From assembly GCA_031459855.1 (NCBI GenBank), contig JAVKHP010000001.1:2702309-2766308 (forward strand): a DNA stretch of 64,000 bases, in the 5' to 3' direction. Made by a program: the position numbers and the translations under genes. The DNA is from Candidatus Fervidifonticultor primus. Its GTDB lineage: Bacteria > Sysuimicrobiota > Sysuimicrobiia > Sysuimicrobiales > Humicultoraceae. Numbering within the stretch: position 1 is the stretch's first letter; each line of letters opens with the position of its first letter. The notes under the pieces are model-generated. The model saw only the letters and a program-made list of their open reading frames with translations. It ran no database searches and had not been told where the DNA came from. This document shows, piece by piece, positions 2,878 to 47,180 of this stretch.

Positions 2878-3585
2878 GTGCACGCGCTCATCCTTGCCGG
2901 CGGCCGCGGGGAGCGCCTGCGGCCGTTCACCGAAGACCGTCCCAAGCCCATGGTGGAGATCATGGGCGTCCCGATCCTCGCCTACCAGCTGCACTGGCTG
3001 CAGACCCAGGGGGTCGACGAGGTGGTCATCGCCTGCGGCTACCGGCACGAGGTGATCACCGACTACTTCGGCGACGGCGCCAAGTGGGGCATGCGCATCC
3101 ACTACGCGGTCGAAGACGAGCCGCTGGGTCGCGGCGGCGCCATCAAGCACGCCTACCGCCAGCTGCCCGGCGCCCCCGACCTCGTGGTCGCCACCAACGG
3201 CGACGTGATCACCAACCTGCCGCTGCTGCCCGTGGTGGAGCACCACCGGGCGCAAGGCGTCCTGGCCACCGTGGTCCTGACCCCCTACGTGAGCACCTAC
3301 GGCCTCGTCGAGGTCGACGAGCGCAACCGCGTCGTGGCGTTTCACGAAAAGCCGACCCTGCCCTACTGGGTGAACGCCGGCATCTACGTGCTCTCCCGGC
3401 AGGCCATCGAGCAGTTCCCGGACGCCGGCGACCACGAGACCACGACGTTCCCTGCGCTGGCGGCAGCCGGCCAGCTCGGCGCATACAAGTCCACGGCTTA
3501 CTGGCGGGCCGTCGACACCGTGAAGGACCTCTCGGAGGTCCGGAAGGAGCTCGAGCGCCGCCTCCTCACCGCGTTCCTGGCGTAG
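2878..3585 (+). CDS. NDP-sugar pyrophosphorylase (nucleotidyltransferase, mannose-1-phosphate guanylyltransferase / glucose-1-phosphate nucleotidyltransferase family).
   Basis: VHALILAGGRGERLRPFTEDRPKPMVEIMGVPIL... has the G-x-G-x-R-L signature of NTP_transferase. I moved the start to the GTG at 2878; the ORF-track start at 2602 would add about 90 non-homologous residues. Confidence 0.75.
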   Translation: MHALILAGGRGERLRPFTEDRPKPMVEIMGVPILAYQLHWLQTQGVDEVVIACGYRHEVITDYFGDGAKWGMRIHYAVEDEPLGRGGAIKHAYRQLPGAPDLVVATNGDVITNLPLLPVVEHHRAQGVLATVVLTPYVSTYGLVEVDERNRVVAFHEKPTLPYWVNAGIYVLSRQAIEQFPDAGDHETTTFPALAAAGQLGAYKSTAYWRAVDTVKDLSEVRKELERRLLTAFLA

Positions 3586-3630
3586 GGCGGGCCCACGCGG
3601 GACCGGGCGAACCTGCCGCGGACGGCGTAG

Positions 3631-3715
3631 CCTCACCGCGCGCGGGACCGCCGAGCGTCGAGGGCCTGCCTGGGGGCGTTCGTCTCGCATCCTCACCGTG
3701 TGCGCGGGACCGCCG
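3631..3715. repeat. Imperfect direct repeat (about 23-25 nt, CCTCACCG(C/T)G(C/TG)GCGCGGGACCGCCG) duplicating the dtd stop-codon region.
   Basis: Copy 1 at 3631-3653 in the convergent intergenic spacer. Copy 2 at 3691-3715 contains the dtd TGA stop and its last codons. Confidence 0.4.
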
Positions 3716-4163
3716 GCTGTTCCTCGCCGACCTCCAGCAACAGGGTCACCGGCCCGTCGTTGGCGATCTCCACCAGCATGCGGGCGCCGAACCGGCCGGT
3801 AGCGACCCGCAGGCCGCGCGCCCGCAGGCCCGCGGCCACGCGCTCGCACAGGGGCGCGGCGCGCGCCGACGGGGCCGCTCGCGTGAACGACGGCCGGCGC
3901 CCGCGACTGGTATCGCCGTAGAGGGTGAATTGCGGCACCAGCAGCACCTCGCCCCCAACCTCGAGCAGCGAGCGGTTGAGCTTGCCGGCCTCGTCGTCGA
4001 ACAGCCGCAGGTGCGCCAGCTTGTCGGCCATGGCGTCGGCGTCGGCCACCGTATCCCCCTCGCCCACACCGAGGAGGACCACGACACCGCGGCCGATGCT
4101 CCCGACGACCTCGTCGCCGACCCGCACCGCACCGCGGGCGACCCGCTGGACCACCGCGCGCAC
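3693..4163 (-). CDS. dtd: D-aminoacyl-tRNA deacylase.
   Basis: VRAVVQRVARGAVRV...SQFTLYGDTSRGRRPSFT...GRFGARMLVEIANDGPVTLLLE carries the Dtd hallmarks (SQFTLY, NDGPVT). GTG start at 4163-4161 chosen by alignment to the family N-terminus MRAVVQRV. Confidence 0.85.
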   Translation of the reverse strand: MRAVVQRVARGAVRVGDEVVGSIGRGVVVLLGVGEGDTVADADAMADKLAHLRLFDDEAGKLNRSLLEVGGEVLLVPQFTLYGDTSRGRRPSFTRAAPSARAAPLCERVAAGLRARGLRVATGRFGARMLVEIANDGPVTLLLEVGEEQPAVPRTR

Positions 4164-4236
4164 GGCTACCTCGCGTACCGGCGGCACGCCAGAGGACGGA
4201 CGGGGCACCACGGACAGCCCATCGCTCCCGACAGGG

Positions 4237-5445
4237 CTACGCCGGTGCGCCCGCGGCCAGCACGTCGGCGAGGGCTGCCACCACCTGCGCGTTGTCCTCG
4301 GGCGTGTTGTAGAAGTACGGCGAGAGACGCACGATGCCCGGCCGGGCGTCCACGATGATACCGCGCGCCCGCAGCGCGGCCACCACGCCGGGCGGATCCG
4401 GCACCGGCACCGTCACGATGCCGGCGTGCCCGTCCAGGTGGGCCGGCACCCGCGGGGCGAGCCCAACCGTCCGCAGCCGGTCCACCAGGTCGGCCACGAG
4501 CTCCAGCTGGCGGTGCCGCAGGCGCGCCGTCCCCACCTCGAGCACGATCTCCAGCCCCGCGTCGGCGGCGTACGCCGCGGCCACCGCCGGCGTGCCGCCC
4601 TCGAAGCGCCGCGCGTCCGCCGCGGGCTCGAAGCGGTCGGTGCGGAACGCGAACTGGTCGCGGTGGGCGAACCATCCCACCGCCGACGGGTGGAGGCGCT
4701 CATGCAGCTCGCGGCGCACGTAGAGGAACGCGAACCCCGGGCCCCCGAGCAGCCACTTCAGCCCGCCGGTCACCAGGAAGTCCACCCCCAGCGCGCGCAC
4801 GTCGGTGGGGAGCTGACCCGTGGCCTGGTAGGCGTCGATCAGGCACAGGGCACCGTGCCGGTGCGCCAGGTCGGCCAGCGCGGCCACGTCCTGCACGTAG
4901 CCGCTGGTGTAGTACACCTGCGAGGCGACGACCAGCGCCGTGCGGGCGTCCACGGCGGCAGCGTATGCGTCGACGGGCGTCGTGGGCGCCTCCGGGTCGC
5001 CCACCACGACCGGCTCCACGCCGGCCGGCTGTCTGGCCAGCCACTGGTAGACGGCGGTGGGGAAGTCCAGCCGGCTGGTCACGACACGGGGCCGCCGTGG
5101 GTCCCAGACCGCGCTGGCCACCGCCGTCAGCGCCGCGGTGATCGAGGGGAAGAGCGCGATCTCTTCGGGTGCTGCGCCGACGACGCGCGCGCACTTTGCG
5201 CGCAGGGCGCTCAAGCGCTCCCACCAGGGCCCGTACCAGGCCGCGGCGCCGTGCTCGTGCCAGAGCGCGAGGAACTGGCGCACCGCAGCCTCCACCCGCA
5301 CGGACAGCGCGCCCAGCGAGCAGGTGTTGAAGTACAGTGCGCGCTCGAAGATCGGAAACTCCTGGCGCCAGCGCCGCCAGGCCGGCGCGCCGTCGTCCGT
5401 CGCGGGTGGCCGTGCTGCGCTCACCACCGCGGCCACCCACCGCAC
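4237..5445 (-). CDS. Class V aminotransferase-fold PLP enzyme (cysteine desulfurase / kynureninase / isopenicillin-N-epimerase-like).
   Basis: EFPIFERALYFNTCSLGALS..., TGGLKWLLGGPGFAFLYVRRE and SPYFYNTPEDN motifs typical of the class V family. Confidence 0.75.
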   Translation of the reverse strand: MRWVAAVVSAARPPATDDGAPAWRRWRQEFPIFERALYFNTCSLGALSVRVEAAVRQFLALWHEHGAAAWYGPWWERLSALRAKCARVVGAAPEEIALFPSITAALTAVASAVWDPRRPRVVTSRLDFPTAVYQWLARQPAGVEPVVVGDPEAPTTPVDAYAAAVDARTALVVASQVYYTSGYVQDVAALADLAHRHGALCLIDAYQATGQLPTDVRALGVDFLVTGGLKWLLGGPGFAFLYVRRELHERLHPSAVGWFAHRDQFAFRTDRFEPAADARRFEGGTPAVAAAYAADAGLEIVLEVGTARLRHRQLELVADLVDRLRTVGLAPRVPAHLDGHAGIVTVPVPDPPGVVAALRARGIIVDARPGIVRLSPYFYNTPEDNAQVVAALADVLAAGAPA

Positions 5446-32527: not shown

Positions 32528-32719
32528 ATGGCGCGGCGGTGCGCGATCTGCGGGAAAGGACCGGCGGCTGGGTACAGCCTCAGCCACTCGCACGTGCGCT
32601 CGCACCGGCGCTTCCTGCCCAACCTGCAGCGCGTGCGGGTGGTCATCGGGACGACGACGCGCCGGGCGAGCGTCTGCACGGCGTGCCTGAAGGCCGGCCG
32701 CGTGCGGCGCGCCGTCTAG
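32528..32719 (+). CDS. rpmB: 50S ribosomal protein L28 (zinc-ribbon type).
   Basis: MARRCAICGKGPAAGYSLSHSHVRSHRRFLPNLQRVRVVIGTTTRRASVCTACLKAGRVRRAV read directly from the sequence. Not in the ORF track. Its TAG stop overlaps the hslO stop in the palindrome CTAG. Confidence 0.85.
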   Translation: MARRCAICGKGPAAGYSLSHSHVRSHRRFLPNLQRVRVVIGTTTRRASVCTACLKAGRVRRAV

Positions 32720-33609
32720 GCGCCGTCGTGGGTGGCCACGGCGTCAAACACCGCCGCGACCTCTGCGGTCCCCAGCACGTACCGCTCGCCGCAAAAGCGG
32801 CACTGCACCTCGATGCGCCCCTCCTCACGCAGCAGGCGGTCCGCTTCCGCGCGCCCCAGCGCCACGAGCACGTCTTCGACCTTGCGGGGGCTACAGCGAC
32901 ACGCGAACCGCACGGGGCGTTCCTCGCGCACGGCCAGCGGCAGCTCGCCCAGCGCCATGCGCAGCATGTCGTCGGGCGTGGCGCCGTCGCGCACCATGTG
33001 GGTCACCGCCGGCAGCGCCCGGGCCCGCTCCTCCAGGTACGCCGGCATCCACGCTGGGGCCCCGGGCATGACCTGGAGCATCAACCCGCCGGACGCGAGC
33101 ACGCGTTCGTCCGGGCTGACCAACACGCCCACCGCCACCACCGACGGAACCTGCTCGCTGCGCACCAGGTAGGCGGCGAGGTCTTCTCCGATCTCGCCGG
33201 AGACAAGGGGCACGCTGCCCTGGTACGGATCGCGCAGCCCGAGGTCCCTGGTCACGTGGAAGATGCCCCGGCGGCCGACCGCGCCGCCCACGTCCAGCTT
33301 CCGCGCGGGCGTGGGTGGCAGGTGCGTGTGCGGATGGGTCACGTATCCCCGTAGGGCGCCGTCGGCCGTACTCTCCGACACCACCGGGCCCAGCGGCCCG
33401 TCGCCCAGCACCCGGATCATCACCGTCTGCCGGCCCTTCAGGGTGGCCCCCAGCATCGCGGCCGCCACCAGCGCCCGTCCCAGCGCGGCAGTGGCGGTCG
33501 GCAGGGTGCCGTGGCGCCGCCGCGCCTCCTCGGTGCTCTGCGTGGCCACCACGGCGCAGGCGAGCACTGTGCCATCGGCGGCCGTCCCGCGGACCAGCGT
33601 ATCGTCCAT
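32716..33609 (-). CDS. hslO: Redox-regulated chaperone Hsp33.
   Basis: Hsp33 N-domain plus C-terminal zinc centre (FACRCSPRK...CRFCGERY). ATG at 33609 (MDDTLVRGTAADG) with a [10 protein letters not shown]. Confidence 0.9.
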   Translation of the reverse strand: MDDTLVRGTAADGTVLACAVVATQSTEEARRRHGTLPTATAALGRALVAAAMLGATLKGRQTVMIRVLGDGPLGPVVSESTADGALRGYVTHPHTHLPPTPARKLDVGGAVGRRGIFHVTRDLGLRDPYQGSVPLVSGEIGEDLAAYLVRSEQVPSVVAVGVLVSPDERVLASGGLMLQVMPGAPAWMPAYLEERARALPAVTHMVRDGATPDDMLRMALGELPLAVREERPVRFACRCSPRKVEDVLVALGRAEADRLLREEGRIEVQCRFCGERYVLGTAEVAAVFDAVATHDGA

Positions 33610-33640: not shown

Positions 33641-34453
33641 CTAGGAAACGTCGAGGACGGCCTGAACCTGCCCGTGCATCGGATTGGCCGGCCCGTGCCC
33701 ACGGCCCAGCGGTAGCGCCGCCCGAATCGCCGCCGTGACGAACGTCTTGGCCCTGCGGACCGCCTCCTCGACCTCCCGGCCCTTGGCGAGCTCGGCAGCG
33801 ATCGCCGACGCGAAGACGCACCCCGTGCCGTGCGTGTGCGGCGTGGCGATCCGTTCCGCGCGCAGGTGGACCAGGCGCCTGCCGTCGTAGAACACGTCGA
33901 CGGGCGCTTCGGCCAGGTGTCCGCCTTTCACCACCACGGCCCGCGGCCCCAGCGCGTGCAGGCGGCGGGCCGCGTCCTCCATCTCGCGCACGGTGCGGAT
34001 CTCCTGGCCCGTCAGGGCCCGCGCCTCGTGCAGGTTGGGCGTGACGACCAGGGCCAGCGGCAGCAGCAGCGTCCGCAGCGCCTCCACCGCGTCGGGCCGC
34101 AGCAACGGCGCTCCCGACTTGGCGATCATCACCGGATCGACGACGAGCACCTCCAGCCGATGGGCCCGCAGGCGGTCGGCCACCGCCTCGATGATGCCGG
34201 CACTGGCGAGCATGCCCGTCTTGACCGCATCGACGCCGATGTCGGTCACGACCGTGTCGATCTGCTGCGCCACGAACGCCGGCGCTATCTCCACGACGCC
34301 GAAGACGCCCGTGGTGTTCTGGGCCGTCAGGGCCGTGATGGCGGTCATGCCGAAGACCCCCAGGGCCGAGAAGGTCTTCAGGTCGGCCTGGATGCCCGCG
34401 CCGCCGCCCGAGTCGCTGCCGGCGATGGTCAGAGCTCGCGGAATGGTCGTCAT
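33641..34453 (-). CDS. thiD: Hydroxymethylpyrimidine/phosphomethylpyrimidine kinase.
   Basis: ALTIAGSDSGGGAGIQADLKTF...THGTGCVFASAIAAELAKG is the ThiD family sequence. Its ATG overlaps the thiL stop. Confidence 0.9.
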   Translation of the reverse strand: MTTIPRALTIAGSDSGGGAGIQADLKTFSALGVFGMTAITALTAQNTTGVFGVVEIAPAFVAQQIDTVVTDIGVDAVKTGMLASAGIIEAVADRLRAHRLEVLVVDPVMIAKSGAPLLRPDAVEALRTLLLPLALVVTPNLHEARALTGQEIRTVREMEDAARRLHALGPRAVVVKGGHLAEAPVDVFYDGRRLVHLRAERIATPHTHGTGCVFASAIAAELAKGREVEEAVRRAKTFVTAAIRAALPLGRGHGPANPMHGQVQAVLDVS

Positions 34454-35442
34454 CGCGCCTCCCGTCGCACGAAGTGGTCCCACCCTCCCGCCAGCGGGCG
34501 CTCCGCGCCGTCCGGCGTGCGCACCATGACGCCGTCGGCCGCCGGGCGGACGACACCGACGGCCGTCAGGGCCGTCCCGGTGGCCGCCAGGGCGTCGACG
34601 AGCACCGCGAGGTCGGCAGGAGCCGCGGCGAGCAGCAACTCGTAGTCCTCGCCGCCGTACAGCGCCAGAGCGAGCGGGTCTTCCCCCAGGCGGGCGGCCG
34701 CGTCGCGCACGGCCCGGCTCACCGGCACCTGGGCCGCATCGATCAGGGCGCCCACTGCGCTCTCTTCCGCCAGGCGGTGCAGGTCGCTGCCCAGGCCGTC
34801 GCTCAGGTCCAGGGCGGCCCGCACCCGCCCGGTGGCCGCCAGCGCCTGCCCCTCGTGCACGCGCGGGGTCGGCGTGCAGTAGGCCTCGACGAGCGGACCA
34901 TCGGTCACCCCCGTACGCAGGAGCCGCAGGCCCGCCGCCGCCCGGCCCAGGTCGCCGGTCACCAGCAGCAGGTCGCCCGGACGCGCCCCCGACCGCCGCA
35001 GCGCCCGCGCTGGCTCGACGTCGCCCAGCACCGTCACGTCGATGACGAGCGGCCCCGGGGTGCTGCTGATGTTGCCGCCGACGACCACGAGCCCCCAGCG
35101 GTCTGCCTCCGCCAGCAGGCCGTCGTACATGCGCTCGAGCCAGGCCACCTCCAGCGCCGCCGGCAGCAGCAGCGAGACCAGGGCGTACGCCGGGCGGCCG
35201 CCCATGGCCGCGATGTCGCTCACGTTCACCGCCAGGGCGCGCCGGCCGACCTGTTCCGGGGTCATCAGGTCCCGGAGGAAGTGCACGCCGTCCACCTGGG
35301 CATCGACCGTCGCGAGCACGGCCCGGTCGCCCGGCGCTGGGAGCAGCGCGGCGTCGTCACCCAGGTACGCCGACCCGAGCTGGCGCCGTAGCCGCGCCAG
35401 CAGCGGGAACTCGCCCAGGTCACCGACGCGTTCGGGCGGCAT
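34450..35442 (-). CDS. thiL: Thiamine-monophosphate kinase.
   Basis: LLARLRRQLGSAYLGDDAALL...VDGVHF...DISDIAAMGG-type ThiL motifs. Confidence 0.88.
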   Translation of the reverse strand: MPPERVGDLGEFPLLARLRRQLGSAYLGDDAALLPAPGDRAVLATVDAQVDGVHFLRDLMTPEQVGRRALAVNVSDIAAMGGRPAYALVSLLLPAALEVAWLERMYDGLLAEADRWGLVVVGGNISSTPGPLVIDVTVLGDVEPARALRRSGARPGDLLLVTGDLGRAAAGLRLLRTGVTDGPLVEAYCTPTPRVHEGQALAATGRVRAALDLSDGLGSDLHRLAEESAVGALIDAAQVPVSRAVRDAAARLGEDPLALALYGGEDYELLLAAAPADLAVLVDALAATGTALTAVGVVRPAADGVMVRTPDGAERPLAGGWDHFVRREAR

Positions 35443-36049
35443 CGACCTGAGCGCGCAGGGCGCGGGCGGCGGCTGCGATGTCGGGCTGCGCTACCACGGC
35501 GGAGACCACCGCGACCCCTACGGCTCCGGTGCGTATGACCGCCGCGGCGTTCTCGACCGTGATCCCACCGATGCCGACCACGGGGATGCGCACCGCCCGG
35601 ACGATGCGTGCCAACCCCTCCAGGCCGATCGCCTCCCCCGCGTCGGCCTTGGTGCCGGTGGGGAACACCGCGCCCACCCCGAGGTAGTCGGCACCCTCGG
35701 CCTCGGCGCGCCGGGCGGCCTCTACGGTTCCCGCAGACGCCCCCACGATCTTGCCCGGCCCGAGCAGCCGCCGGGCTGCCGCGACCGGCAGGTCGTCCTC
35801 GCCCACGTGCACGCCGTCGGCACCACAGGCCACCGCGACGTCGGCGCGGTCGTTGACGATGAACACCACGCCGCGCGCGCGGCACAGCGCCGCCAGGCGC
35901 TCGCCGACCTCCACCAGCACCCGGGCCGTCGCGGTCTTGTCACGCAGCTGGATGACCGTGGCGCCGCCGGCGATCGCCGCCTCGGCCTGGACCTCGTGGC
36001 TGCGGCCGGACAGCTCCCGGTCGGTGATCACGTACAGGCGAAGGTCCAC
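35420..36049 (-). CDS. thiE: Thiamine-phosphate synthase.
   Basis: LYVITDREL...VIQLRDK...ADYLGVGAVFPTGTK...VGIGGI. Confidence 0.9.
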   Translation of the reverse strand: MDLRLYVITDRELSGRSHEVQAEAAIAGGATVIQLRDKTATARVLVEVGERLAALCRARGVVFIVNDRADVAVACGADGVHVGEDDLPVAAARRLLGPGKIVGASAGTVEAARRAEAEGADYLGVGAVFPTGTKADAGEAIGLEGLARIVRAVRIPVVGIGGITVENAAAVIRTGAVGVAVVSAVVAQPDIAAAARALRAQVDAARTRR

Positions 36050-36070
36050 GGGGCCCCGTCGGCCTCCTCG

Positions 36071-37030
36071 CTACTGGGCGCGCACCAGTTCCTCGAGATC
36101 GACGCCCAGCAGCCGCGCCACCTCGCGGACGGGCGCGAAGAACTCGTCCAGCGTGCGCAGCTTCAAGCCGTGCGCGGTCCGCAGGATCTCCACGTCGGCG
36201 AAGCCGTGGATGCGGTACAGGCTGTCCAGCGTCTCGCGCCCCGGGGCGGTCTGGGCGATGCGCAGCAACGCCAGGGCCGTACGGGCCTTGACCTCCTCGG
36301 GCAGGTCGCGGCGGAACGACACGGTGTCGGCGGGAATGGGGTCGGTGTAGGCCAGCACCCGCACGCGCTCCTTCACGTCCGGGTACAGGCGGATCACCCG
36401 GTCGCGGGCGTCGTTGCCGAACTCGTCGCCGAACGTCGCGCCGGCGTCGACCGAGCCCGTGTAGACGGCCAGCACCACCTTGTCGTGGCCGCCCGCGAAC
36501 ACCACCTGGCTGAAGTGCCGCGTCGGATCGATACCGTGGCGCTTCAGCAGCGCCGCGGGGAAAAGGTATCCCGACGCCGACGCCGGGTCGACGAACGCGA
36601 ACCGCCGCCCGCGCAGGTCGGCCACCGTGCGAATGGGCAGTCCCGCCCGGTAGAGGATCTGGGACCGGTAGTAGGGCACGCCGAACCGCACGCTGACCAG
36701 ACGCACGTCGGCGCCGCAGCGCTGGCGGGCCAGCACGTAGGCGAAGGGGTGCAGGAACGCCACGTCGACGCGGCCCGCGCACATCGCCTCGATGGTGGCC
36801 GCGTAGCTGGTGGGCACCTCGGCTCGCACCGTATAGCCTGTGGCCACTTCCAGCATGCGCGCCAGCGTGCTGCCGGTGGCCAGCACGCGCTGGGCGTCGC
36901 TGGAAGGCGTGAACGCCAGCGTCAGGGCCGGGGACGGCGCCGCGTGTCCGGCGGGGATGCCCGCCGCCACCAGGGCCGCCGCCGCGCACAGCACCGCCAG
37001 GCGCAGTCGCCGTGCTCCACGTGGTATCAA
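36071..37030 (-). CDS. PhnD-family (phosphonate/phosphite/phosphate-type) ABC-transporter periplasmic substrate-binding protein with a signal peptide. First gene of the TPP-riboswitch-controlled thi operon.
   Basis: YAATIEAMCAGRVDVAFLHPFAY...FVDPASASGYLFPAALLKRHGIDP...VVFAGGHDKVVLAVYTGSVDAGAT is the PhnD-like (TIGR01098 / Phosphonate-bd) pattern. TTG start at 37030 is preceded by a GCGAGGAGG RBS (9-nt spacer). The signal peptide reads IPRGARRLRLAVLCAAAALVAAG. Confidence 0.8.
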   Translation of the reverse strand: MIPRGARRLRLAVLCAAAALVAAGIPAGHAAPSPALTLAFTPSSDAQRVLATGSTLARMLEVATGYTVRAEVPTSYAATIEAMCAGRVDVAFLHPFAYVLARQRCGADVRLVSVRFGVPYYRSQILYRAGLPIRTVADLRGRRFAFVDPASASGYLFPAALLKRHGIDPTRHFSQVVFAGGHDKVVLAVYTGSVDAGATFGDEFGNDARDRVIRLYPDVKERVRVLAYTDPIPADTVSFRRDLPEEVKARTALALLRIAQTAPGRETLDSLYRIHGFADVEILRTAHGLKLRTLDEFFAPVREVARLLGVDLEELVRAQ

Positions 37031-37130
37031 GGACGTGAACCTCCTCGCGCGTGGTCGATCGGCCGACGCGCACCGCGACGCCGTCTGACAACACGACAGC
37101 CGCCCCGTCCACGACGACTGGCGGCTGCGT

Positions 37131-37250
37131 CGGCCTGCACTCCCCACGCCAGCATTACCTGGATCGGGTCCAACGGGTCGGCGAATATCCCGACCGTCGT
37201 GGCCGGGCGGTTCGCCCTCTCAGCCCGCCTGGTTTCGAGCTCCCCCACGC
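37131..37250 (-). promoter_or_regulatory. TPP (thiamine pyrophosphate) riboswitch, the THI element.
   Basis: Minus strand reads GGGGGAGC...GGGCUGAGAGGGCGAACCGCCC...ACCCGUUGGACCCGAUCCAGGUAAUGCUGGCGUGGGGAG. It contains the CUGAGA Thi-box and ACCC, and a segment with 26/31 identities to the thiM consensus GAACCUGAUCUGGAUAAUGCCAGCGUAGGGA. It lies about 100 nt upstream of the PhnD-like gene start. Confidence 0.8.
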
Positions 37251-37268
37251 TGTAGAGTTGTCAAAATC

Positions 37269-37297
37269 ATGATACCCTGCGGATGCGTGCGACGCAA
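37269..37297 (-). promoter_or_regulatory. Candidate promoter TTGCGT-N17-TATCAT driving the TPP riboswitch and thi operon.
   Basis: Minus strand reads TTGCGTcgcacgcatccgcagggTATCAT. The predicted TSS is about 10 nt before the first riboswitch stem. Confidence 0.45.
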
Positions 37298-37303
37298 GCC
37301 GCC

Positions 37304-37331
37304 GAATCACACCGGAACCCGGTTGTTCCGG
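37304..37331 (-). terminator. Hairpin CCGGAAC-ccgguu-GUUCCGG followed by UGUGAUU, immediately after the NIPSNAP stop codon.
   Basis: Inverted repeat at 37312-37331. The TAA stop of the NIPSNAP gene is at 37333-37335. Confidence 0.5.
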
Positions 37332-37332
37332 A

Positions 37333-37638
37333 TTACGCGGGCAGCGGGGAGAGCCAATACGTCTGGGCGGCGACCAGGAGCTCGGCCGGATCGGGCCGGA
37401 GGGCTTTGCGCTCCGGTGATGCGTAGTAGGCCGCGTCGGCCTCCTCGAACGAGCCGGGACCGCGGTACGAGAGGATCCAGACGAACCGGTGCTGGTCGGG
37501 GATGGTCCACGCGCCCTCGATGACGAACCCGTACCGTTCCCGAAGCGGCCGGACTCCCGCCCTCCACCGTGCGACGAACTCGCCGAGTGCGCCCTCGGCG
37601 ACGGTGTAGATGCGGAGTTGCGCCGACCGCTCGCTCAT
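37333..37638 (-). CDS. NIPSNAP family protein.
   Basis: MSERSAQLRIYTVAEGALGEFVARWRAGVRPLRERYGFVIEGAWT...HRFVWILSYRGPGSFEEADAAYYASPER. The overlapping 211-aa ORF in another frame is rejected. Confidence 0.75.
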   Translation of the reverse strand: MSERSAQLRIYTVAEGALGEFVARWRAGVRPLRERYGFVIEGAWTIPDQHRFVWILSYRGPGSFEEADAAYYASPERKALRPDPAELLVAAQTYWLSPLPA

Positions 37639-37920
37639 CGAGCCGTGCTGCACGCTGCACAGATTGCCCGCGAATCTGCAGGCGCCATCGCCCATACCCG
37701 CCGGTCACTGCCTGCGGCCGCAGCAGCCACACAGAGTGGCCGCGCCTCCACAGGCCCCATCGAGAACCCTGGCGCCCGTTGGCCCTCGACGCCCTGTACG
37801 CGGCCCTCCCGGGCGAGTCCTGCTGCTGAGGACGCGTGACGGGGCTACGTGGAAGCCGTAGACGCCTGGCACAGCGGTGTCGACCGCGGCACGCCGCCCT
37901 GCAGTTGGTGGTGGTGCTGC

Positions 37921-38901
37921 TTAGCCCTCCAGCACGCGCCACAACTCGTCCCGCTCAAGGGGCGCCAGTGCACTGGTCTGCCCCGCCCGCACGACCTCCC
38001 GGGGCCCCGCGGTGAGCTGACCGATGACGGCCGCCGGAATCCCTGCGTCGGCCAGCGCGGCCAGCAGCGGCCGGGGATCGGCAGTCGCCATGAGCATGGC
38101 GCCGCTCCCGATCAGCCCCAGCGGGTCGATGCCCAGGACTCCACACACCGCGCGGGTCTCCTGCGCCACCGGCACGGCGTCGGCGTCCAGGCGGACACCG
38201 CATCCGGACGCTTCGGCGAGCTCCCAGGTCCCCGTGAGGACGCCGCCCTCGGTGACGTCGTGCATCGCCGAAACGCCGGCCCGGGCGCCGATACGGCCCT
38301 CGGGCACGACGCTGATCCGGTCGATGAACCCGCGCGCCCGCGCCAGGGTCGCCTCGTCCACCTGCGCGCGCAGCTGCGCGCCCAGGTCTTCTGCGAGGAT
38401 CGCCGTGCCCTCGATCCCCGCGCCTTTGGTGAGGACCAACCAGTCGCCCGGCCGCCCGCCCCCAGACGACACGAACCCGTCGCGTGGCGCCCGGCCGATG
38501 GCCGCCGTGACCACCAGTGGTCGGTCGATGCCCGCCGTGACTTCCGTGTGCCCGCCCACGATCTCGACGCCCACGCTGCGGGCGGCCTGCCCGGCGTCGT
38601 GCATCAGGCGGTCCAGGTCGTCCTCGCTCGCTGCCTGCGGCAGCAGGAGCGTCAGCAGCACAGCCACGGGCTCGGCACCCGTCGCCGCCACGTCGTTGCA
38701 CGCCACGTGGACCGCCAGCCGCCCCAGGTGCGCGGAGGCGCCCGTGATCGGATCGCAGGTGACCACGCAGGCCGCGGGACCGAAGTCCAGGACCGCGCAG
38801 TCCTCGCCGACGGCGGCGTGGACGAGCACGTCCGGCCGGCGTCCCAGGTGCGGGAACACGCACTGGCGCAGCGCCAGCGGCGAGAGCTTACCGACCCGCA
38901 T
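37921..38901 (-). CDS. AIR-synthase-related protein (PurM-like fold, HypE / ThiL / selenophosphate-synthetase superfamily).
   Basis: MRVGKLSPLALRQCVFPHLG...AVLDFGPAACVVTCDPITG...GAEPVAVLLTLLLP...VGGHTEV. ATG at 38901 with an AGGTGA RBS. The N-terminal 170 residues of the ORF-track frame are non-homologous. Confidence 0.8.
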   Translation of the reverse strand: MRVGKLSPLALRQCVFPHLGRRPDVLVHAAVGEDCAVLDFGPAACVVTCDPITGASAHLGRLAVHVACNDVAATGAEPVAVLLTLLLPQAASEDDLDRLMHDAGQAARSVGVEIVGGHTEVTAGIDRPLVVTAAIGRAPRDGFVSSGGGRPGDWLVLTKGAGIEGTAILAEDLGAQLRAQVDEATLARARGFIDRISVVPEGRIGARAGVSAMHDVTEGGVLTGTWELAEASGCGVRLDADAVPVAQETRAVCGVLGIDPLGLIGSGAMLMATADPRPLLAALADAGIPAAVIGQLTAGPREVVRAGQTSALAPLERDELWRVLEG

Positions 38902-43121: not shown

Positions 43122-43532
43122 TCAGACCGTCACCCCGCGCGGCCTGACGTTCTCCTGCACCCAGCGCACGATCTCGGCCAGGGAAGTGCCCGGGAGGAAG
43201 ACCTTGCGGATCCCGGCGGCCTCCAGCCCGGGGATGTCGTCCTCGGGGATGATGCCGCCGCCGAACACCACGATGTCGTCGGCGCCGGCCTCGCGCAGCA
43301 GCTGGACAACCCGCGGGAAGAGCACGTTGTGGGCGCCGGAGAGGATCGACAGGCCCACGGCGTCCACGTCCTCCTGGATCGCCGCGCTGGCGATCATCTC
43401 CGGCGTCTGGTGCAGCCCGGTGTAGATCACCTCGACGCCCGCGTCCCGCAGCGCCCGCGCGACCACCTTGATGCCGCGGTCGTGCCCGTCGAGCCCGGGT
43501 TTGGCCAGCAGGATGCGCAACGGCCGTGCCAT
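43122..43532 (-). CDS. B12-binding small subunit of a split acyl-CoA mutase (IcmB-like, 136 aa).
   Basis: [39 protein letters not shown]... carries the DxHxxG cobalamin His-ligand motif (DGHDRG). Stand-alone B12 domain as in isobutyryl-CoA mutase IcmB and archaeal-type split MCM. Confidence 0.85.
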
Positions 43533-43541
43533 CACCGAGTC

Positions 43542-43570
43542 ATGATACGCACGGGTGCCGGCGGGGTCAA
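43542..43570 (-). promoter_or_regulatory. Candidate internal promoter TTGACC-N17-TATCAT placed 9 nt upstream of the B12-subunit ATG (leaderless start implied).
   Basis: Minus strand reads cgTTTGACCccgccggcacccgtgcgTATCATgactcggtgATG. Confidence 0.4.
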
Positions 43571-43608
43571 ACGGGCGCCCTCGGGCCTGCGGCGACCCCG
43601 GGGATCCC

Positions 43609-45189
43609 TCAGATGACGACCGGCTCGCGGTACTCGCCGTAGACCTCGCGCAGCACGCCGCAGATCTCCCCGAGCGTCGCGTAGGCGCGCACGCACTCGA
43701 GGATGTGCTCCATGGTGTTGTCGTTCCCCGCGGCCGCCCGGCGGAGCGCCTCCAGCCGCCGCGCCACCTGGGTGTTGTCGCGCTCGGCGCGCACACGCCG
43801 GGTCCGCTCGATCTGCCGGCGTTCCACCTCCGGGGGAATGCGCAGGATGGGGATGGGACGCTCCTCGGGCACGACGAACTCGTTGACCCCGACGATGATC
43901 CGTTCCTTGCGCTCCACCTGCTGCTGGAAGCGGAACGCCGCGTCGGCGATCTCCCGCTGCGGGTAGCCGGCCTCCACCGCCGCCACCATCCCGCCCATGG
44001 CGTCGATGCGCTCGATGTACGCCCAGGCGGCCTCTTCCAGCTGGTTGGTGAGCGCCTCGACGAAGTAGGCCCCGCCCAGGGGATCGACCGTGCTGGCCAC
44101 GCCGGTCTCGTAGGCGATGATCTGCTGGGTGCGCAGCGCCACCATCACCGCCTCCTCGGTGGGCAGCGCGTACGTCTCGTCCATGGAGTTGGTGTGCAGC
44201 GACTGGGTCCCGCCCAACACCGCGGCCAGGGCCTGCAGCGCCACCCGCGCCACGTTGTTGAGGGGCTGCTGGGCCGTGAGCGAGACGCCGGCGGTCTGGG
44301 CGTGGGTGCGCAACCACCACGACCGCGGGTTTTGGGCCCCGAAGCGCTCCCGCATGATCCTGGCCCACATGCGCCGCGCCGCACGGAACTTGGCGATCTC
44401 CTCGAAGAAGTCGCTGTGGACGTCGAAGAAGAAGGACAGCCGCGGCGCGAAGGCGTCGACGTCCAGCCCCGCGGCCAGGCCCAGCTTCACGTACTCAATG
44501 CCGTCGGCCAGCGTGAAGGCCAGCTCCTGCACGGCCGTGGCGCCGGCCTCGCGGATGTGGTAGCCGGAGACGCTCACCACGTTCCACTGGGGCAGGTGCC
44601 GCGTGCCGAAGACCAGCATGTCCGCCACCAGGCGCAGGGCCGGCCGGGGCGGGACGATCCACTCCTTCTGGGCGATGTACTCCTTGAGGATGTCGGTCTG
44701 GGTGGTGCCCCGCAGGCGGTCGGGCGGCACACCCTGACGCTCGGCCACGGCGACGTACATGGCGAGCAGCACGTTGGCCGGCGCGTTGATGGTCATGGAG
44801 GTGCTGACCCGGTCGAGCGGGATGCCCTGGAACAGGATCTCCATGTCGGCCAGCGAGTCGACGGCCACGCCCTCGCGGCCCACCTCGCCCTGGGCCCGCG
44901 GATGGTCGGAGTCGTACCCCATCAGCGTGGGCATGTCGAAGGCCACCGACAGCCCGGTCTGCCCCTGGGCCAGCAGGTAGTGGAAGCGCCGGTTGGTGTC
45001 CTCGGCGGTGCCGAACCCGGCGAACTGGCGCATCGTCCACAGCTTCCCGCGGTACATGGTGGCGTGGATGCCGCGGGTGAACGGATACGCTCCCGGACGG
45101 CCCAGGTCGACCTCCGGCGACCACCCCGCCAGGTCCTCGGGACCGTAGACCTCCTTCACCGGAATGCCCGACAGCGTCTCGTAGCGCAT
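43609..45189 (-). CDS. Acyl-CoA mutase large (substrate-binding TIM-barrel) subunit without a B12 domain. Specificity residues match isobutyryl-CoA mutase (IcmA-like) rather than methylmalonyl-CoA mutase.
   Basis: [17 protein letters not shown]...[29 protein letters not shown]...[17 protein letters not shown]. Phe at the MutB Tyr89 position (RQFAGF versus RQYAGF) and Gln at the MutB Arg207 position (YIAQKEW versus FMVRNTY). GGAGG RBS before the ATG at 45189. The 1187-aa ORF-track frame is a read-through artefact. Confidence 0.85.
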
Positions 45190-47180
45190 CAGCGCTCGCC
45201 TCCGGGGCCTGCCGCGCTGCCCTCCGCGCGCAGGCTGGCGGCCAGGAGCTCGGCCACGTCGCGCGGCTGCCACCGCGCCTCGCGCGCCGCCCGGCCATCC
45301 TCCAGCATCAGCATACAAAACGGGCAGGCGGTTGCCACCACGTCCGCCCCGGTGGCCGTGGCGTGGTCGCTGCGCACGTGGTTGACGCGCTGGCCCACGC
45401 GGTCCTCGGTCCAGTACAACCCGCCGCCCGCCCCGCAGCAGAAGCCGCGCTCGCGGCACGCCGCCATCTCCACCACGTGCGCCCCGGGCAGGGCCCGCAG
45501 CACGCGGCGCGGCGCGTCGTACTCGCCGTTGTGCCGGCCCAGGTAGCAGGGATCGTGGAAGGTGATGCGCCCCGCAGGCGCCGTCTGCGGCCGCAGCCGT
45601 CCCGCGGCCACCAGCCGGTCCAGGAGCTGGGTGTGGTGCCAGACCTCGAACTGCCCGCCGACCTGGGGGTACTCGTGGCGCAGGGTGTTGTAGCAGTGGG
45701 GACAGACGGTGACGATCTTCTCGACGCCGTGGCGGCGCAGGGTGGCGATGTTCTGCTGGGCCAGGGTCTGGAACAGGTACTCGTTGCCCATCCGCCGCGC
45801 GGGATCGCCGGTGCACTGCTCGGCATCGCCCAGGATGGCCACGTCCAGCCCCGCCTGCGCCAGCAGGGCTACCAGCGCCCGCAGGGTCCCGTGGTTGCGC
45901 TCGTTGAGGGCCGAGGCGCACCCCACCCACAAGAGCCAGTCGGCCCGCTCCCCGTCGGCCAGGATGCGGATGCCGGTCCCCGCCGCCCAGACGGTCCGGG
46001 TGACGGCGGCGCCACGGAAGGGATGCGCGCGAGCCTCCAGGCTGCGCAGCGCATCGGCCATCGGCTCGGGCACGCGGGCCTGCTCCATCACCAGGTGGCG
46101 GCGCATGCCGACGATCTTGTCGATGTGGTCGTTGGTGGCCGGGCACTCCTCGACGCAGGCGCCGCAGGTGAGGCACTGCCAGAGGAACGCCTCGGAGAAC
46201 ACCTCGCCGACCAGTGCGGGCGGCGATCCCTGGCCGGTGGCGGCTGCTGCGACGCGGTGCAGCTGGCGGCGCAGGTCGGTGTGGAGGCGGCGCGGGTCGA
46301 GCTCCTTCCCGGTGCTGTGGGCCGGGCAGACCTCCACGCAGCGGCCGCACTCCATGCAGGCGAAGGCGTCCAGGTGGTCCTTCCAGGTCAGGTGCTCGAC
46401 GGCCGAGACCCCCAGCACCTCCGCGCGCTCGACGTCCACGGGCTCCAGGGCACCGCGCGGGCGCGCCTTGCGCAGCAGGACGTTCGGCACCAGCGTAATC
46501 AGGTGGAGGTGCTTGCCCTCGGGAATCCAGGTCAGGAAGACCAGGATCAGCGCCAGGTGCCCCCACCACGCGACCTCGAACACGCCGCGGACGACGCCCG
46601 GGCCGGCGCGCTGGAGGCCCTCGGCCAGCCGCGCCGAGAGCACCGCGCCGGTTGCCCACGCGGGCTGCTCGAGGGCGATCTGCCCGGCGCGGGAGGCCAG
46701 CAGGGTGACCATGATGCCGCTGATGAAGCCCAGGATCAGGTAGGCGCCCTTCTGGTCCTGTCCGGCGAGCCGCGCGGGGCGCACCACCACCCGCCAGTAC
46801 AGGGCCAGCCCCACGCCGAGCAGCACCAGCACGATGAACAGGTCCTGCAGAAACGCCAGCCACGGCGACGCGCCGATCCCGGGCAGGGTCCACCCGGGAC
46901 GCACCGACTCGCCCAGCGCCTGGACGATGGTGGTCAGCAGCACCAGGAAGCCCCAGAAGATGAACAGGTGCAGCACGCCCGCCAGTGGCCGGCGCAGCAC
47001 CCTGCGATGGAGCAGCACGTGCACCACGAGGTCGCGCAGCCGCACCGACAGCGGCGCGAGCGGCACCGGGCCCCGGCCGAGCCGGATCAGCCGGTAGATG
47101 CGCCACAGCTTGCGCGCGAACACGGCCCCGGCGGCCAGCGTCAGGGGCCCGACGAGGACCGCGCGCCACCACCAGGGCAT
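45189..47180 (-). CDS. Membrane-anchored Fe-S oxidoreductase, HdrD/GlpC/EtfD-like. N-terminal 5-6 TM helices, 2x[4Fe-4S] ferredoxin motifs and two CCG cysteine-rich domains. Candidate ETF:quinone oxidoreductase.
   Basis: TM region [18 protein letters not shown]...[10 protein letters not shown], then [12 protein letters not shown] and [12 protein letters not shown], then CPHCYN...CCGAGGG and CPFCM (CCG domains). Immediately downstream of etfA. Confidence 0.8.

What the first reader, a model, noticed from the sequence alone, without database searches (positions are those of the whole stretch)
36071..37300. TPP riboswitch controlling an orphan PhnD-family binding protein fused to the thiE-thiL-thiD operon
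A convincing THI element (CUGAGA box, ACCC, and GGACCCGAUCCAGGUAAUGCUGGCGUGGGGA with 26/31 identities to the thiM consensus) sits on the minus strand at 37131-37250. It has its own TTGCGT-N17-TATCAT promoter (37269-37297) placed just after the NIPSNAP terminator. The first gene it controls is not a thiamine enzyme. It is a secreted PhnD-type (phosphonate/phosphite/phosphate family) substrate-binding protein with a TTG start and strong RBS, followed at 21 nt by thiE-thiL-thiD and then hslO. No permease or ATPase gene is adjacent. TPP-regulated transporters described so far use ThiB, ThiY (NMT1-like), ThiT, CytX, YkoF or PnuT components. A PhnD-fold SBP under THI control suggests uptake or sensing of a phosphorylated thiamine precursor or analogue (HMP-P, thiamine phosphate, or a phosphonate antivitamin) by an unrecognised route.
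Basis: partly seen in the sequence, partly recalled or inferred. Interest (0 to 1): 0.65.

Follow-up and report, generated by a model that had tools for sequence, protein, structure and literature searches.

The report
Thiamine riboswitch controls a PhnD-like binding protein
In a small group of uncultured hot-spring bacteria, a vitamin-B1-sensing RNA switch always sits in front of a secreted binding protein copied from a phosphonate transporter, which suggests an undescribed way of scavenging vitamin B1 or its building blocks.

Summary
Rfam finds a TPP riboswitch at 37124-37256 (minus strand; 55.6 bits, threshold 54.3). It is followed by a conserved terminator-like hairpin, then a secreted PF12974/PhnD-fold binding protein (SBP, 36071-37030), then thiE-thiL-thiD-hslO. 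No ABC permease or ATPase lies within about 15 kb.

Comparative data change the picture.
- The SBP is a recent paralogue of the PhnD component of a phnDCE transporter that is conserved in about 100 loci of phylum CSP1-3 (Sysuimicrobiota). That transporter lies next to nrdR-nrdJ and never has a riboswitch.
- The paralogue clade is marked by T41, S44, H94 and R142, at columns where the other ~113 homologues have V41 and A/N/S94.
- All 9 loci of this clade have a TPP aptamer directly upstream, in four gene arrangements. One arrangement is a stand-alone riboswitch-SBP unit with no thi genes.
- Two genomes carry both the riboswitch-linked copy and the canonical phnDCE, which is the likely membrane partner.
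- The phosphate/phosphonate "head" contacts and a PhnD-like acidic cap are kept, and the pocket wall is changed.

The ligand is unknown. A phosphorylated thiamine vitamer or precursor is plausible but untested. I rate this a new variant of a known kind, of moderate interest.

The parts
37269..37297 (-). Putative promoter (TTGCGT-N17-TATCAT). Weak.
   Evidence: Read from the sequence. It is not called by the sigma-70 scan because the -35 hexamer matches only 3/6. It is conserved in L001 but not in L002 or L003.
37124..37256 (-). TPP riboswitch aptamer (RF00059), with a 26-nt extension of P3.
   Evidence: 55.6 bits against a gathering score of 54.3, E 3.4e-8. Covariation on 8 aptamers.
37221..37229 (-). 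GGCGGGCUG segment inside the aptamer (3' strand of P2 and start of the CUGAGA box). Predicted anti-terminator partner of the 5' half of the terminator.
   Evidence: The complementarity to CAGCCGCC can be read from the sequence. This pairing appears in nascent-transcript folds of the L085 and L087 leaders but is less clear in the window's own fold. Inferred.
37097..37128 (-). Conserved hairpin GCAGCCGCC-loop-GGCGGCUG (-20.7 kcal/mol). Probable intrinsic terminator of the expression platform.
   Evidence: The stem sequence is identical in all six SBP leaders and the stem covaries in the L087 thiT leader (AAGCCACC..GGUGGCUU).
37087..37096 (-). U-poor tail UCGUGUUGUC after the hairpin.
   Evidence: 5 U in 10 nt. 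It does not meet the U-tract rule of the terminator scan.
37040..37046 (-). Ribosome-binding site GAGGAGG, 9 nt before the TTG start.
   Evidence: Sequence. Conserved in L001.
36071..37030 (-). Secreted PhnD-paralogue substrate-binding protein (319 aa) of the TPP-linked clade (T41, S44, H94, R142).
   Evidence: PF12974 212 bits, TIGR01098 197 bits. AF2 pLDDT 91 with a PtxB/PhnD fold. Clade signature.
35420..36049 (-). thiE (thiamine-phosphate synthase), 21 nt after the SBP stop, with its own GAGGAGG.
   Evidence: TIGR00693 210.8 bits against a cut-off of 145.
34450..35442 (-). thiL (thiamine-phosphate kinase); overlaps thiE.
   Evidence: TIGR01379 292.6 bits against a cut-off of 184.
33641..34483 (-). 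thiD (HMP/HMP-P kinase); overlaps thiL.
   Evidence: TIGR00097 357.5 bits against a cut-off of 205.
32716..33609 (-). hslO (Hsp33), close behind thiD and possibly co-transcribed. The start at 33609 is inferred from the first Met before the HSP33 domain.
   Evidence: NF001033 294 bits. The same order is seen in L001, L087 and L092.

Best explanation
This is a TPP-riboswitch-controlled vitamin-B1 salvage operon whose first gene is a neofunctionalised PhnD paralogue.

Shown: the aptamer; a conserved hairpin downstream of it; the SBP's fold and family; its origin as a duplicate of the PhnD of a phnDCE transporter that is widespread in the phylum; and strict co-occurrence of the riboswitch with the T41/S44/H94/R142 clade.

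Inferred mechanism:
- When TPP is scarce, the aptamer segment GGCGGGCUG pairs with CAGCCGCC. The terminator cannot form, and SBP-thiE-thiL-thiD is transcribed.
- When TPP is bound, that segment is locked into P2/J3-2. The GCAGCCGCC..GGCGGCUG hairpin forms and stops transcription.
- The exported SBP captures a thiamine-related compound and hands it to the PhnE permease and PhnC ATPase encoded at the nrdR-nrdJ-phnDCE locus elsewhere in the genome.
- ThiD, ThiE and ThiL then convert the imported compound to TPP.

The P-oxyanion contacts (Y76, Y121, S151, S153, H182) and the acidic cap (D235, D207, S43) are retained. The ligand most likely therefore has a phosphate or phosphonate head and an amino or cationic tail: HMP-P, thiamine monophosphate or TPP. 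The clade-specific changes V41T, S44 and A94H would reshape the tail pocket.
For: Aptamer:
- RF00059, 55.6 bits; covariation on 8 aptamers.

Platform:
- The hairpin is conserved in 6 SBP leaders and covaries in a seventh, the thiT leader.
- No promoter-like site lies between the aptamer and the SBP.

Linkage:
- A TPP aptamer sits directly upstream of the SBP in the window, L001, L092, L002, L003, L087, L088, L085 and L086.
- L085 and L086 are monocistronic riboswitch-SBP units with no thi genes nearby.
- No TPP hit was found in about 105 canonical or other loci.

Paralogy:
- The NJ tree places the TPP-linked SBPs as one clade nested within the canonical ones.
- The signature T41/S44/H94/R142 occurs only in P0001-P0006 out of 120 homologues.

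Partner:
- The canonical neighbours pass the PhnC (320 against 266 bits) and PhnE (242 against 217 bits) equivalog cut-offs.
- The same assemblies hold both copies: JAVKHQ has L002 and L018; JAVKIP has L086 and L009.
- The same metagenome holds L092 and L094.

Pocket:
- PtxB contacts Y55, Y100, S130-S132 and H160 map to Y76, Y121, S151-S153 and H182 (PMC5700983).
- The Ec_PhnD cap T14/E177/D205 maps to S43/D207/D235, and PtxB L20 (the hydrophobic pocket wall) maps to T41.
- PhnT-family SBPs are known to evolve new tail specificities, for example GpxB for glycerol phosphates (PMC12718374).
Against: - No binding or expression data exist.
- The window itself shows no permease or ATPase, and its genome could not be searched. 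The closest genome (L001) yielded no canonical copy among the 80 loci kept.
- The terminator has a poor U-tract and was not called by the scan.
- The anti-terminator pairing is clear only in some leaders.
- Only two or three pocket-proximal residues differ from the canonical PhnD.
- The E177/D207 equivalence crosses a loop insertion.
- The gene context (thiD, thiE, thiL) fits unphosphorylated HMP uptake equally well.
Confidence: 0.6

Rival explanations
1. Same architecture, but the SBP binds an unphosphorylated precursor: the pyrimidine moiety (HMP, FAMP or aminomethylpyrimidine, as ThiY does) or a thiazole (HET or carboxy-HET). The former phosphonate site would then hold a hydroxyl or carboxylate, or a co-bound anion.
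For: thiD (HMP kinase) is in the operon in three of the four arrangements. A weak NMT1/THI5 (ThiY-type) Pfam match of 30 bits is present. HMP is the best-documented environmental precursor, and TPP-regulated HMP transporters are common (PMC11452348). In L002 and L003 the SBP sits beside an SSF symporter and thiM, which suggests two uptake routes for the two moieties.
Against: All P-oxyanion head residues are strictly retained in the TPP-linked clade, which is not expected if no oxyanion is bound. The NMT1 hit is a clan-level cross-match shared by the canonical paralogues. No tenA or ylmB lies nearby.
Confidence: 0.2
2. The SBP keeps the ancestral PhnD specificity (a phosphonate, aminoalkylphosphonate or phosphate). 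It came under TPP control through gene shuffling, or it supplies phosphorus for TPP synthesis. On this view it has no thiamine-specific ligand.
For: It is 65-75% identical to the canonical PhnDs, with identical head and cap residues. Orphan copies of the canonical type also occur without any riboswitch (L011, L019, L082).
Against: The riboswitch follows the SBP in four different arrangements, including a monocistronic one away from any thi gene. The clade is defined by substitutions at columns where the other ~113 homologues have V41 and A/N/S94, one of which is a documented pocket-wall position. A riboswitch that senses a coenzyme is a poor regulator for bulk phosphorus uptake.
Confidence: 0.1
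3. The SBP does not feed an ABC transporter. It might serve the SSF symporter seen in relatives, act as a sensor partner, or sequester a thiamine antivitamin.
For: In L002 and L003 the SSF gene starts 36 nt after the SBP stop. No ABC genes are adjacent in any TPP-linked locus. SBPs that signal to sensors are known (PMC8050422 is listed; I did not read it).
Against: The SSF gene is absent from the window, L001, L087 and L085, so the SBP works without it. SBP-dependent SSF transport has no precedent that I know of. No sensor kinase is consistently nearby.
Confidence: 0.05

Closest known systems
E. coli PhnD and the PhnT family (TC 3.A.1.9): PhnD, PtxB, HtxB, GpxB, AioX, ArrX
   Same: Same fold (the top Foldseek hits are PtxB, ArrX, AioX, HtxB and PhnD). 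Same Pfam and TIGR01098 family. Same Y/Y/S-x-S/H head contacts, and a D/S/D cap resembling the D/T/E cap of Ec_PhnD. Its parent paralogue sits next to phnC and phnE equivalogs.
   Different: It scores below the PhnD equivalog cut-off (150 against 261 bits). It has no adjacent phnCE, C-P lyase or ptxD. It is controlled by a TPP riboswitch and sits in or near thi genes. It carries the clade-specific residues T41, S44 and H94.
ThiY of ThiXYZ (NMT1/THI5-like HMP/FAMP-binding protein) and ThiB/TbpA of ThiBPQ
   Same: These are SBPs of thiamine or precursor ABC importers, commonly preceded by TPP riboswitches (my knowledge of Rodionov et al. 2002 and later work). The proposed role in salvage is the same.
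   Different: They belong to different SBP families. Here PF09084 scores 30 bits against 212 for PF12974, PF13531 is below its threshold, and there is no ThiB model hit. Their permease and ATPase genes are normally adjacent.
Mycoplasma p37/Cypl TPP-binding lipoprotein
   Same: A type II binding protein that binds a phosphorylated thiamine form. It is a precedent for SBP capture of TPP.
   Different: There is no real sequence relationship: NF045838 scores 17 bits against a cut-off of 225, over about 40 residues.
ThiV (SSF-family HMP symporter under a TPP riboswitch, SAR11)
   Same: A TPP-riboswitch-controlled precursor uptake gene (PMC11452348). An SSF-family gene sits right after the SBP in L002 and L003.
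   Different: It is a secondary transporter, not an SBP, and it is absent from the window. I did not test whether the L003 SSF protein is orthologous to SAR11 ThiV.

Membership tests
TPP riboswitch (RF00059) | Covariance-model score at or above the Rfam gathering score | tested here: met
   55.6 against 54.3 bits, E 3.4e-8. Relatives score 51.9-57.8 bits; two of them fall just below the gathering score.
TPP riboswitch (RF00059) | Conserved ligand-contact elements (CUGAGA, ACCC, GCG..GGGA) and the P1-P5 helices supported by covariation | tested here: met
   cmscan alignment. 10 pairs show compensatory change and 90.9% of cells are paired, against 37-51% in the slid controls.
TPP riboswitch (RF00059) | Lies in the 5' leader of thiamine synthesis or transport genes, followed by an expression platform | tested here: met
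   It lies upstream of SBP-thiE-thiL-thiD. The conserved, covarying hairpin is at 37097-37128. The U-tract is weak.
TPP riboswitch (RF00059) | TPP binding and TPP-dependent repression | not testable with these tools
   Needs in-line probing, termination assays or reporter assays.
PhnD / PhnT-family SBP (PF12974, TIGR01098, TC 3.A.1.9) | Family HMM scores above the curated cut-offs | tested here: met
   PF12974 212.5 against 27 bits; TIGR01098 197 against 112 bits.
PhnD / PhnT-family SBP (PF12974, TIGR01098, TC 3.A.1.9) | Type II periplasmic-binding-protein fold with Y/Y/S-T-S/H phosphorus-head contacts | tested here: met
   AF2 pLDDT 91. Foldseek to PtxB at E 1e-26. Y76, Y121, S151, A152, S153 and H182 are present; the middle Thr is Ala.
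PhnD equivalog (C-P-lyase-linked phosphonate binding protein, TIGR03431) | Equivalog score, and a phnC/phnE/C-P lyase gene context | tested here: not met
   150.4 bits against a cut-off of 261.1. No phnC, phnE or phnG-M is in the window.
PhnD / PhnT-family SBP (PF12974, TIGR01098, TC 3.A.1.9) | Binds a phosphonate, phosphite or phosphate ester | not testable with these tools
   Needs ligand-binding assays.
ThiY (NMT1/THI5-like HMP-precursor SBP) | Best match to PF09084, with adjacent thiX/thiZ | tested here: not met
   PF09084 scores 30.2 bits over a partial region, against 212 bits for PF12974. No permease or ATPase is adjacent.
ThiB/TbpA and p37/Cypl thiamine/TPP-binding proteins | Family HMM above cut-off | tested here: not met
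   PF13531 scores 21.8 bits, below its cut-off of 25. NF045838 scores 17 bits against a cut-off of 225.

The most novel reading that the evidence does not exclude
A PhnD paralogue has been retuned, through V41T, S44 and A94H, to bind a phosphorylated thiamine precursor or vitamer (HMP-P, TMP or TPP). It shares the PhnE/PhnC membrane machinery with the housekeeping PhnD. This would make it a previously undescribed, riboswitch-gated route of vitamin-B1 salvage, built by SBP duplication within the phosphonate-transporter family.
Probability: 0.35. Interest if true: 0.65.

Novelty: new variant of a known kind. Interest (0 to 1): 0.52.

Why it matters
TPP riboswitches are reliable markers of thiamine-related genes, so a new protein family that sits strictly behind one is a strong lead to a new uptake specificity.

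If confirmed, this would add the phosphonate-transporter (PhnT) family to the list of B1 and precursor importers. It would also be a clean natural example of an SBP paralogue acquiring a new ligand and a new regulator while borrowing its parent's permease. And it would improve predictions of B1 auxotrophy and salvage for the uncultured, widespread CSP1-3/Sysuimicrobiota.

The two or three signature residues give a direct mutational test. The scope is narrow: one clade of hot-spring and groundwater bacteria.

Tried and rejected
- A strict THI-box regular expression found only 3 aptamers and missed L002. I replaced it with Rfam and a purpose-built covariance model, R1.
- A weak R1 hit in L046 (19 bits), about 3.5 kb downstream of its SBP, was not confirmed by Rfam. 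A second weak hit in L083 (16 bits) was left unchecked.
- The longest ORF in the L003 gap (3465-5066) had no Pfam hit and the wrong GC3 pattern. The real gene is the SSF symporter in another frame, 3481-4941.
- The look-up of P0008 (on a 3.15-Mb contig) returned nothing.
- The sigma-70 scan found no promoter-like site in 35900-37800. Its only terminator-like site lies inside the SBP gene (36570-36587) and is probably chance.
- Literature searches for PhnD or phosphonate SBPs combined with TPP riboswitches gave only irrelevant papers. The Sysuimicrobiota paper says nothing on thiamine.
- The metagenome scan added only one more TPP-linked locus, L092. The other 28 loci were canonical or unrelated.
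I mapped positions through alignments to PtxB and Ec_PhnD instead.
- I considered a THI5-like enzyme role for the SBP and rejected it, because the protein has a signal peptide and the NMT1 hit is a clan-level cross-match.
Full report
**1. The observation**

A scan of the whole 64-kb window against Rfam gives a single hit. It is RF00059 (TPP riboswitch) at 37124-37256 on the minus strand, at 55.6 bits against a gathering score of 54.3 and E 3.4e-8, covering the full model. The score is marginal because P3 carries a 26-nt insertion. The CUGAGA box, ACCC and the GCG..GGGGA pyrophosphate-sensor elements are all present.

Downstream on the same strand lie, in order:
- an ORF at 36071-37030 (TTG start, GAGGAGG 9 nt upstream) that is PF12974 'Phosphonate-bd' (212 bits) and TIGR01098 (197 bits), but below the PhnD equivalog cut-off (TIGR03431, 150 against 261 bits);
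- thiE at 35420-36049, after a 21-nt gap;
- thiL at 34450-35442;
- thiD at 33641-34483;
- hslO, then recG.

In the near-identical locus L001 the SBP start is ATG at the position of the window's TTG. Pfam scans of 20 flanking genes found no ABC permease or ATPase. They found an AIR-synthase-like gene, a GFO/IDH/MocA oxidoreductase, DegT, TrmI and others on one side, and rsmD, coaD, yceD, fabH, acpP, rnc and paaA/C on the other. tblastn with PhnC and PhnE finds nothing in the window.

The proposed promoter fails the sigma-70 scan because its -35 hexamer matches only 3 of 6.

**2. What the SBP is**

An AlphaFold2 model (pLDDT 91, pTM 0.82) has the type II binding-protein fold. Its best PDB matches are PtxB (E about 1e-26), ArrX, AioX, XAC2383, HtxB, PhnD and GpxB. 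Sequence-profile hits to the PDB give the same set. An N-terminal hydrophobic helix of low confidence, ending in AGHA|AP, looks like a signal peptide, and it is present in all close relatives.

I mapped the published ligand contacts of Te_PtxB (Y55, Y100, S130, T131, S132, H160; PMC5700983) through the profile alignment. They correspond to Y76, Y121, S151, A152, S153 and H182. All are invariant or nearly invariant in the family.

PtxB's capping Tyr208 and Asp22, which exclude ligands larger than phosphite, are replaced here by D235 and S43. An alignment with E. coli PhnD can be checked against the published mature numbering of T14, Y47, Y93, S127-129 and H157. It gives T14=S43, D205=D235, I12=T41 and G65=H94. 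It also gives E177=D207, across a loop insertion, so that equivalence is less certain.

The family therefore has the phosphorus-oxyanion 'head' site plus a PhnD-like acidic cap. In E. coli PhnD that cap binds the amine of 2-aminoethylphosphonate (PMC5700983; PMC12718374).

**3. Relatives and their contexts**

The SBP has several hundred close homologues (517 with E <= 1e-10 among the scored candidates; the 120 listed are 50-97% identical). They come mostly from MAGs labelled Armatimonadota, Firmicutes or 'bacterium'. The named ones (Ca. Fervidifonticultor, Tepidifontimicrobium, Geohabitans, Calidihabitans) belong to phylum CSP1-3/Sysuimicrobiota (PMC11604079). More distant relatives occur in Chloroflexota and Nitrospinota.

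In about 100 loci the arrangement is nrdR - class II RNR - SBP - ABC ATPase - permease - ... - yggS - sepF. The ATPase and permease pass NCBI's equivalog cut-offs for PhnC (320 against 266 bits) and PhnE (242 against 217 bits). The parent system is therefore a PhnCDE-type transporter in a housekeeping neighbourhood, with no C-P lyase nearby.

**4. The riboswitch-linked clade**

Only a small clade departs from that arrangement. A neighbour-joining tree places the window, L001, L002 and L003 as one clade nested inside the canonical SBPs. Across 120 homologues, T41, S44, H94 and R142 occur together only in P0001-P0006. All the others have V41 (M in two) and A, N or S at position 94.

Every locus of this clade that I could examine has a TPP aptamer immediately upstream of the SBP.

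| Loci | TPP aptamer score |
|---|---|
| window | 55.6 bits |
| L001 | 54.4 bits |
| L003 | 56.8 bits |
| L002 | 51.9 bits, E 1.4e-8 |
| L087 / L088 | 57.8 bits |
| L085 / L086 | 54.1 bits, E 6e-8 |
| L092 | 131 bits with my model R1 |

No TPP aptamer was found in about 105 canonical or other loci. That rests on Rfam at gathering threshold for 24 of them and on R1 for all of them. R1 does detect the divergent thiT aptamer of L087 at 78 bits, so its sensitivity within this phylum is adequate.

The gene arrangements differ:
- (i) TPP-SBP-thiE-thiL-thiD-hslO-recG in the window, L001 and L092.
- (ii) TPP-SBP-SSF symporter-thiM-thiE-thiL-thiD in L002 and L003.
- (iii) TPP-thiT-TPK followed by TPP-SBP-thiE-thiL-adh-thiD-hslO-recG in L087.
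- (iv) A stand-alone TPP-SBP unit between a rhodanese gene and a tRNA plus luciferase-like gene on the other strand, with no thi genes, in L085 and L086.

Arrangement (iv) shows that the riboswitch belongs to the SBP itself. It is not merely the leader of a thi operon into which the SBP was inserted.

Two assemblies contain both copies. Ca. F. sextus has L002 (TPP-linked) and L018 (canonical). Ca. F. secundus has L086 (TPP-linked) and L009 (canonical). One metagenome has both L092 and L094. The likely membrane partner is therefore the canonical PhnE/PhnC. This is inference: sharing of a permease by paralogous SBPs is well known, but I did not test it here.

**5. The riboswitch mechanism**

On eight aptamers the Rfam-type fold has 10 pairs with compensatory changes, mainly in P1 and P3. 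It has 90.9% of cells paired against 37-51% in the slid controls, and none of 500 shuffles reaches the observed covariation score. The alignment was fitted to the model, which favours that structure.

Directly after the aptamer, all six SBP leaders share the hairpin GCAGCCGCC-loop-GGCGGCUG, of about -21 to -23 kcal/mol, at window 37097-37128. The inner loop-stem varies but stays paired. The L087 thiT leader has a covarying version, AAGCCACC..GGUGGCUU. The tail is only weakly U-rich, with 4-5 U in 10 nt in the SBP leaders, so the simple terminator scan does not call it. From my own knowledge, this is common in very GC-rich genomes.

The 5' half of the hairpin is complementary, with one bulge, to GGCGGGCUG inside the aptamer (37221-37229). 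That pairing appears in folds of the nascent L085 and L087 leaders. It is the classic anti-terminator arrangement of an OFF switch. No promoter-like site lies between the aptamer and the SBP. The mechanism is inferred, not shown.

**6. What it most likely does**

The shown facts are:
- a TPP aptamer;
- a conserved downstream hairpin;
- a secreted PhnD-fold protein;
- a recent duplication from a phnDCE system;
- clade-specific substitutions;
- strict riboswitch linkage;
- repeated association with the salvage genes thiD, thiE, thiL, thiM, thiT and TPK.

The best explanation is a TPP-repressed binding protein that captures a thiamine-related compound and delivers it to PhnE/PhnC for conversion to TPP.

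The nature of the ligand is open. Two things argue for a compound with a phosphate or phosphonate head and an amino or cationic tail: the full retention of the oxyanion site, and the acidic cap. HMP-P, TMP and TPP all fit.

The substitution V41T falls on the residue equivalent to PtxB L20 / PhnD1 I11. That residue is described as the hydrophobic surface the ligand packs against (PMC5700983). S44 neighbours the cap residue S43. H94 lies at a strand-to-helix junction facing the cleft; this last point rests on fold knowledge and was not measured.

Precedents exist. [quoted passage not shown] From my own knowledge, ThiB and p37 bind phosphorylated thiamine.

The rivals are an unphosphorylated pyrimidine or thiazole ligand (0.2), unchanged ancestral specificity (0.1), and a role outside ABC transport (0.05).

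**7. Comparison with known systems, and novelty**

The described TPP-regulated uptake components that I know of are ThiB, ThiY, ThiT, YkoEDC/YkoF, CytX, PnuT, ThiV, ThiW and ThiU. None is a PF12974/PhnT-family protein. Full-text searches that combined TPP riboswitch with PhnD or with phosphonate substrate-binding proteins returned nothing relevant. The library is incomplete, so this does not prove absence.

The protein is a member of the PhnT/PF12974 family by sequence and fold. It is not a member of the PhnD equivalog, nor of the ThiY, ThiB or p37 families. I class it as a new variant of a known kind: a riboswitch-gated vitamin-precursor uptake component, built on a new SBP scaffold and apparently borrowing its parent's permease.

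Interest is moderate. It is a clear, testable lead with a defined mutational test, but it is confined to one clade of uncultured bacteria and the ligand is unknown.

Noticed in passing
L005, L009, L018, L081, L083, L089 and about 90 other loci (e.g. L089:4033-13052): The canonical phnD-phnC-phnE cluster of CSP1-3/Sysuimicrobiota is embedded in a conserved housekeeping block (ftsA-ftsZ ... nrdR - class II RNR - phnDCE - Cu-oxidase_4 - yggS - sepF). There is no C-P lyase or ptxD nearby. That is an unusual home for a 'phosphonate' transporter. It may be a constitutive phosphorus importer, as has been proposed for picocyanobacterial PhnD1.
   Followed up: partly
L003:3481-4941 and L002:2424-3881: A 486-aa sodium:solute symporter family gene (PF00474, 59 bits) followed by thiM lies between the SBP and thiE in Ca. 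Fervidifonticultor sextus and octavus. It is absent from the window. It resembles the TPP-regulated ThiV class of HMP symporters, but I did not test orthology.
   Followed up: partly
L087:250-1539 and L087:1633-6332: Two TPP riboswitches control adjacent units in one locus: TPP-thiT-TPK (thiamine uptake and pyrophosphorylation) and TPP-SBP-thiE-thiL-adh-thiD. A zinc alcohol-dehydrogenase-family gene is inserted between thiL and thiD.
   Followed up: partly
window 37921-38898 (-): An AIR-synthase-related protein (PF00586/PF02769) lies two genes upstream of the riboswitch. It scores below the cut-offs for HypE (110 bits), ThiL (108 bits) and SelD (90 bits). It is conserved at the same place in L001. 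Its function is unknown.
   Followed up: partly
L083:3191-6865 (also L114, and the split RNR matches in L004, L008, L043, L046, L050, L052): The class II ribonucleotide reductase upstream of the canonical SBP carries an intein (Hint and LAGLIDADG domains) in several lineages.
   Followed up: no
protein P0006 (2.9-kb contig, 'Firmicutes bacterium' MAG): It looks chimeric. The N-terminal two thirds are nearly identical to the TPP-linked clade, including T41, S44 and H94. The C-terminal third resembles the canonical paralogues. This could be recombination between paralogues or an assembly chimera.
   Followed up: no
L011:5780-6637, L019:4524-5459, L082:7001-7936, L074:10001-10846: These are orphan copies of the canonical-type SBP (V41, with A or S at position 94), with no adjacent phnCE and no TPP riboswitch. 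SBP-only paralogues are therefore recurrent in this family.
   Followed up: partly
window 36570-36587 (-): The only terminator-like site called in the region lies inside the SBP coding sequence (CCCGGCGTCGGCGTCGGG followed by ATACCTTTTC). It is probably a chance match.
   Followed up: no
window 43122-47180 (-): A B12-binding-domain protein and a 663-aa Fe-S/CCG-domain protein lie upstream of an ETF / acyl-CoA dehydrogenase / 3-hydroxyacyl-CoA dehydrogenase cluster. They are unrelated to this finding.
   Followed up: no
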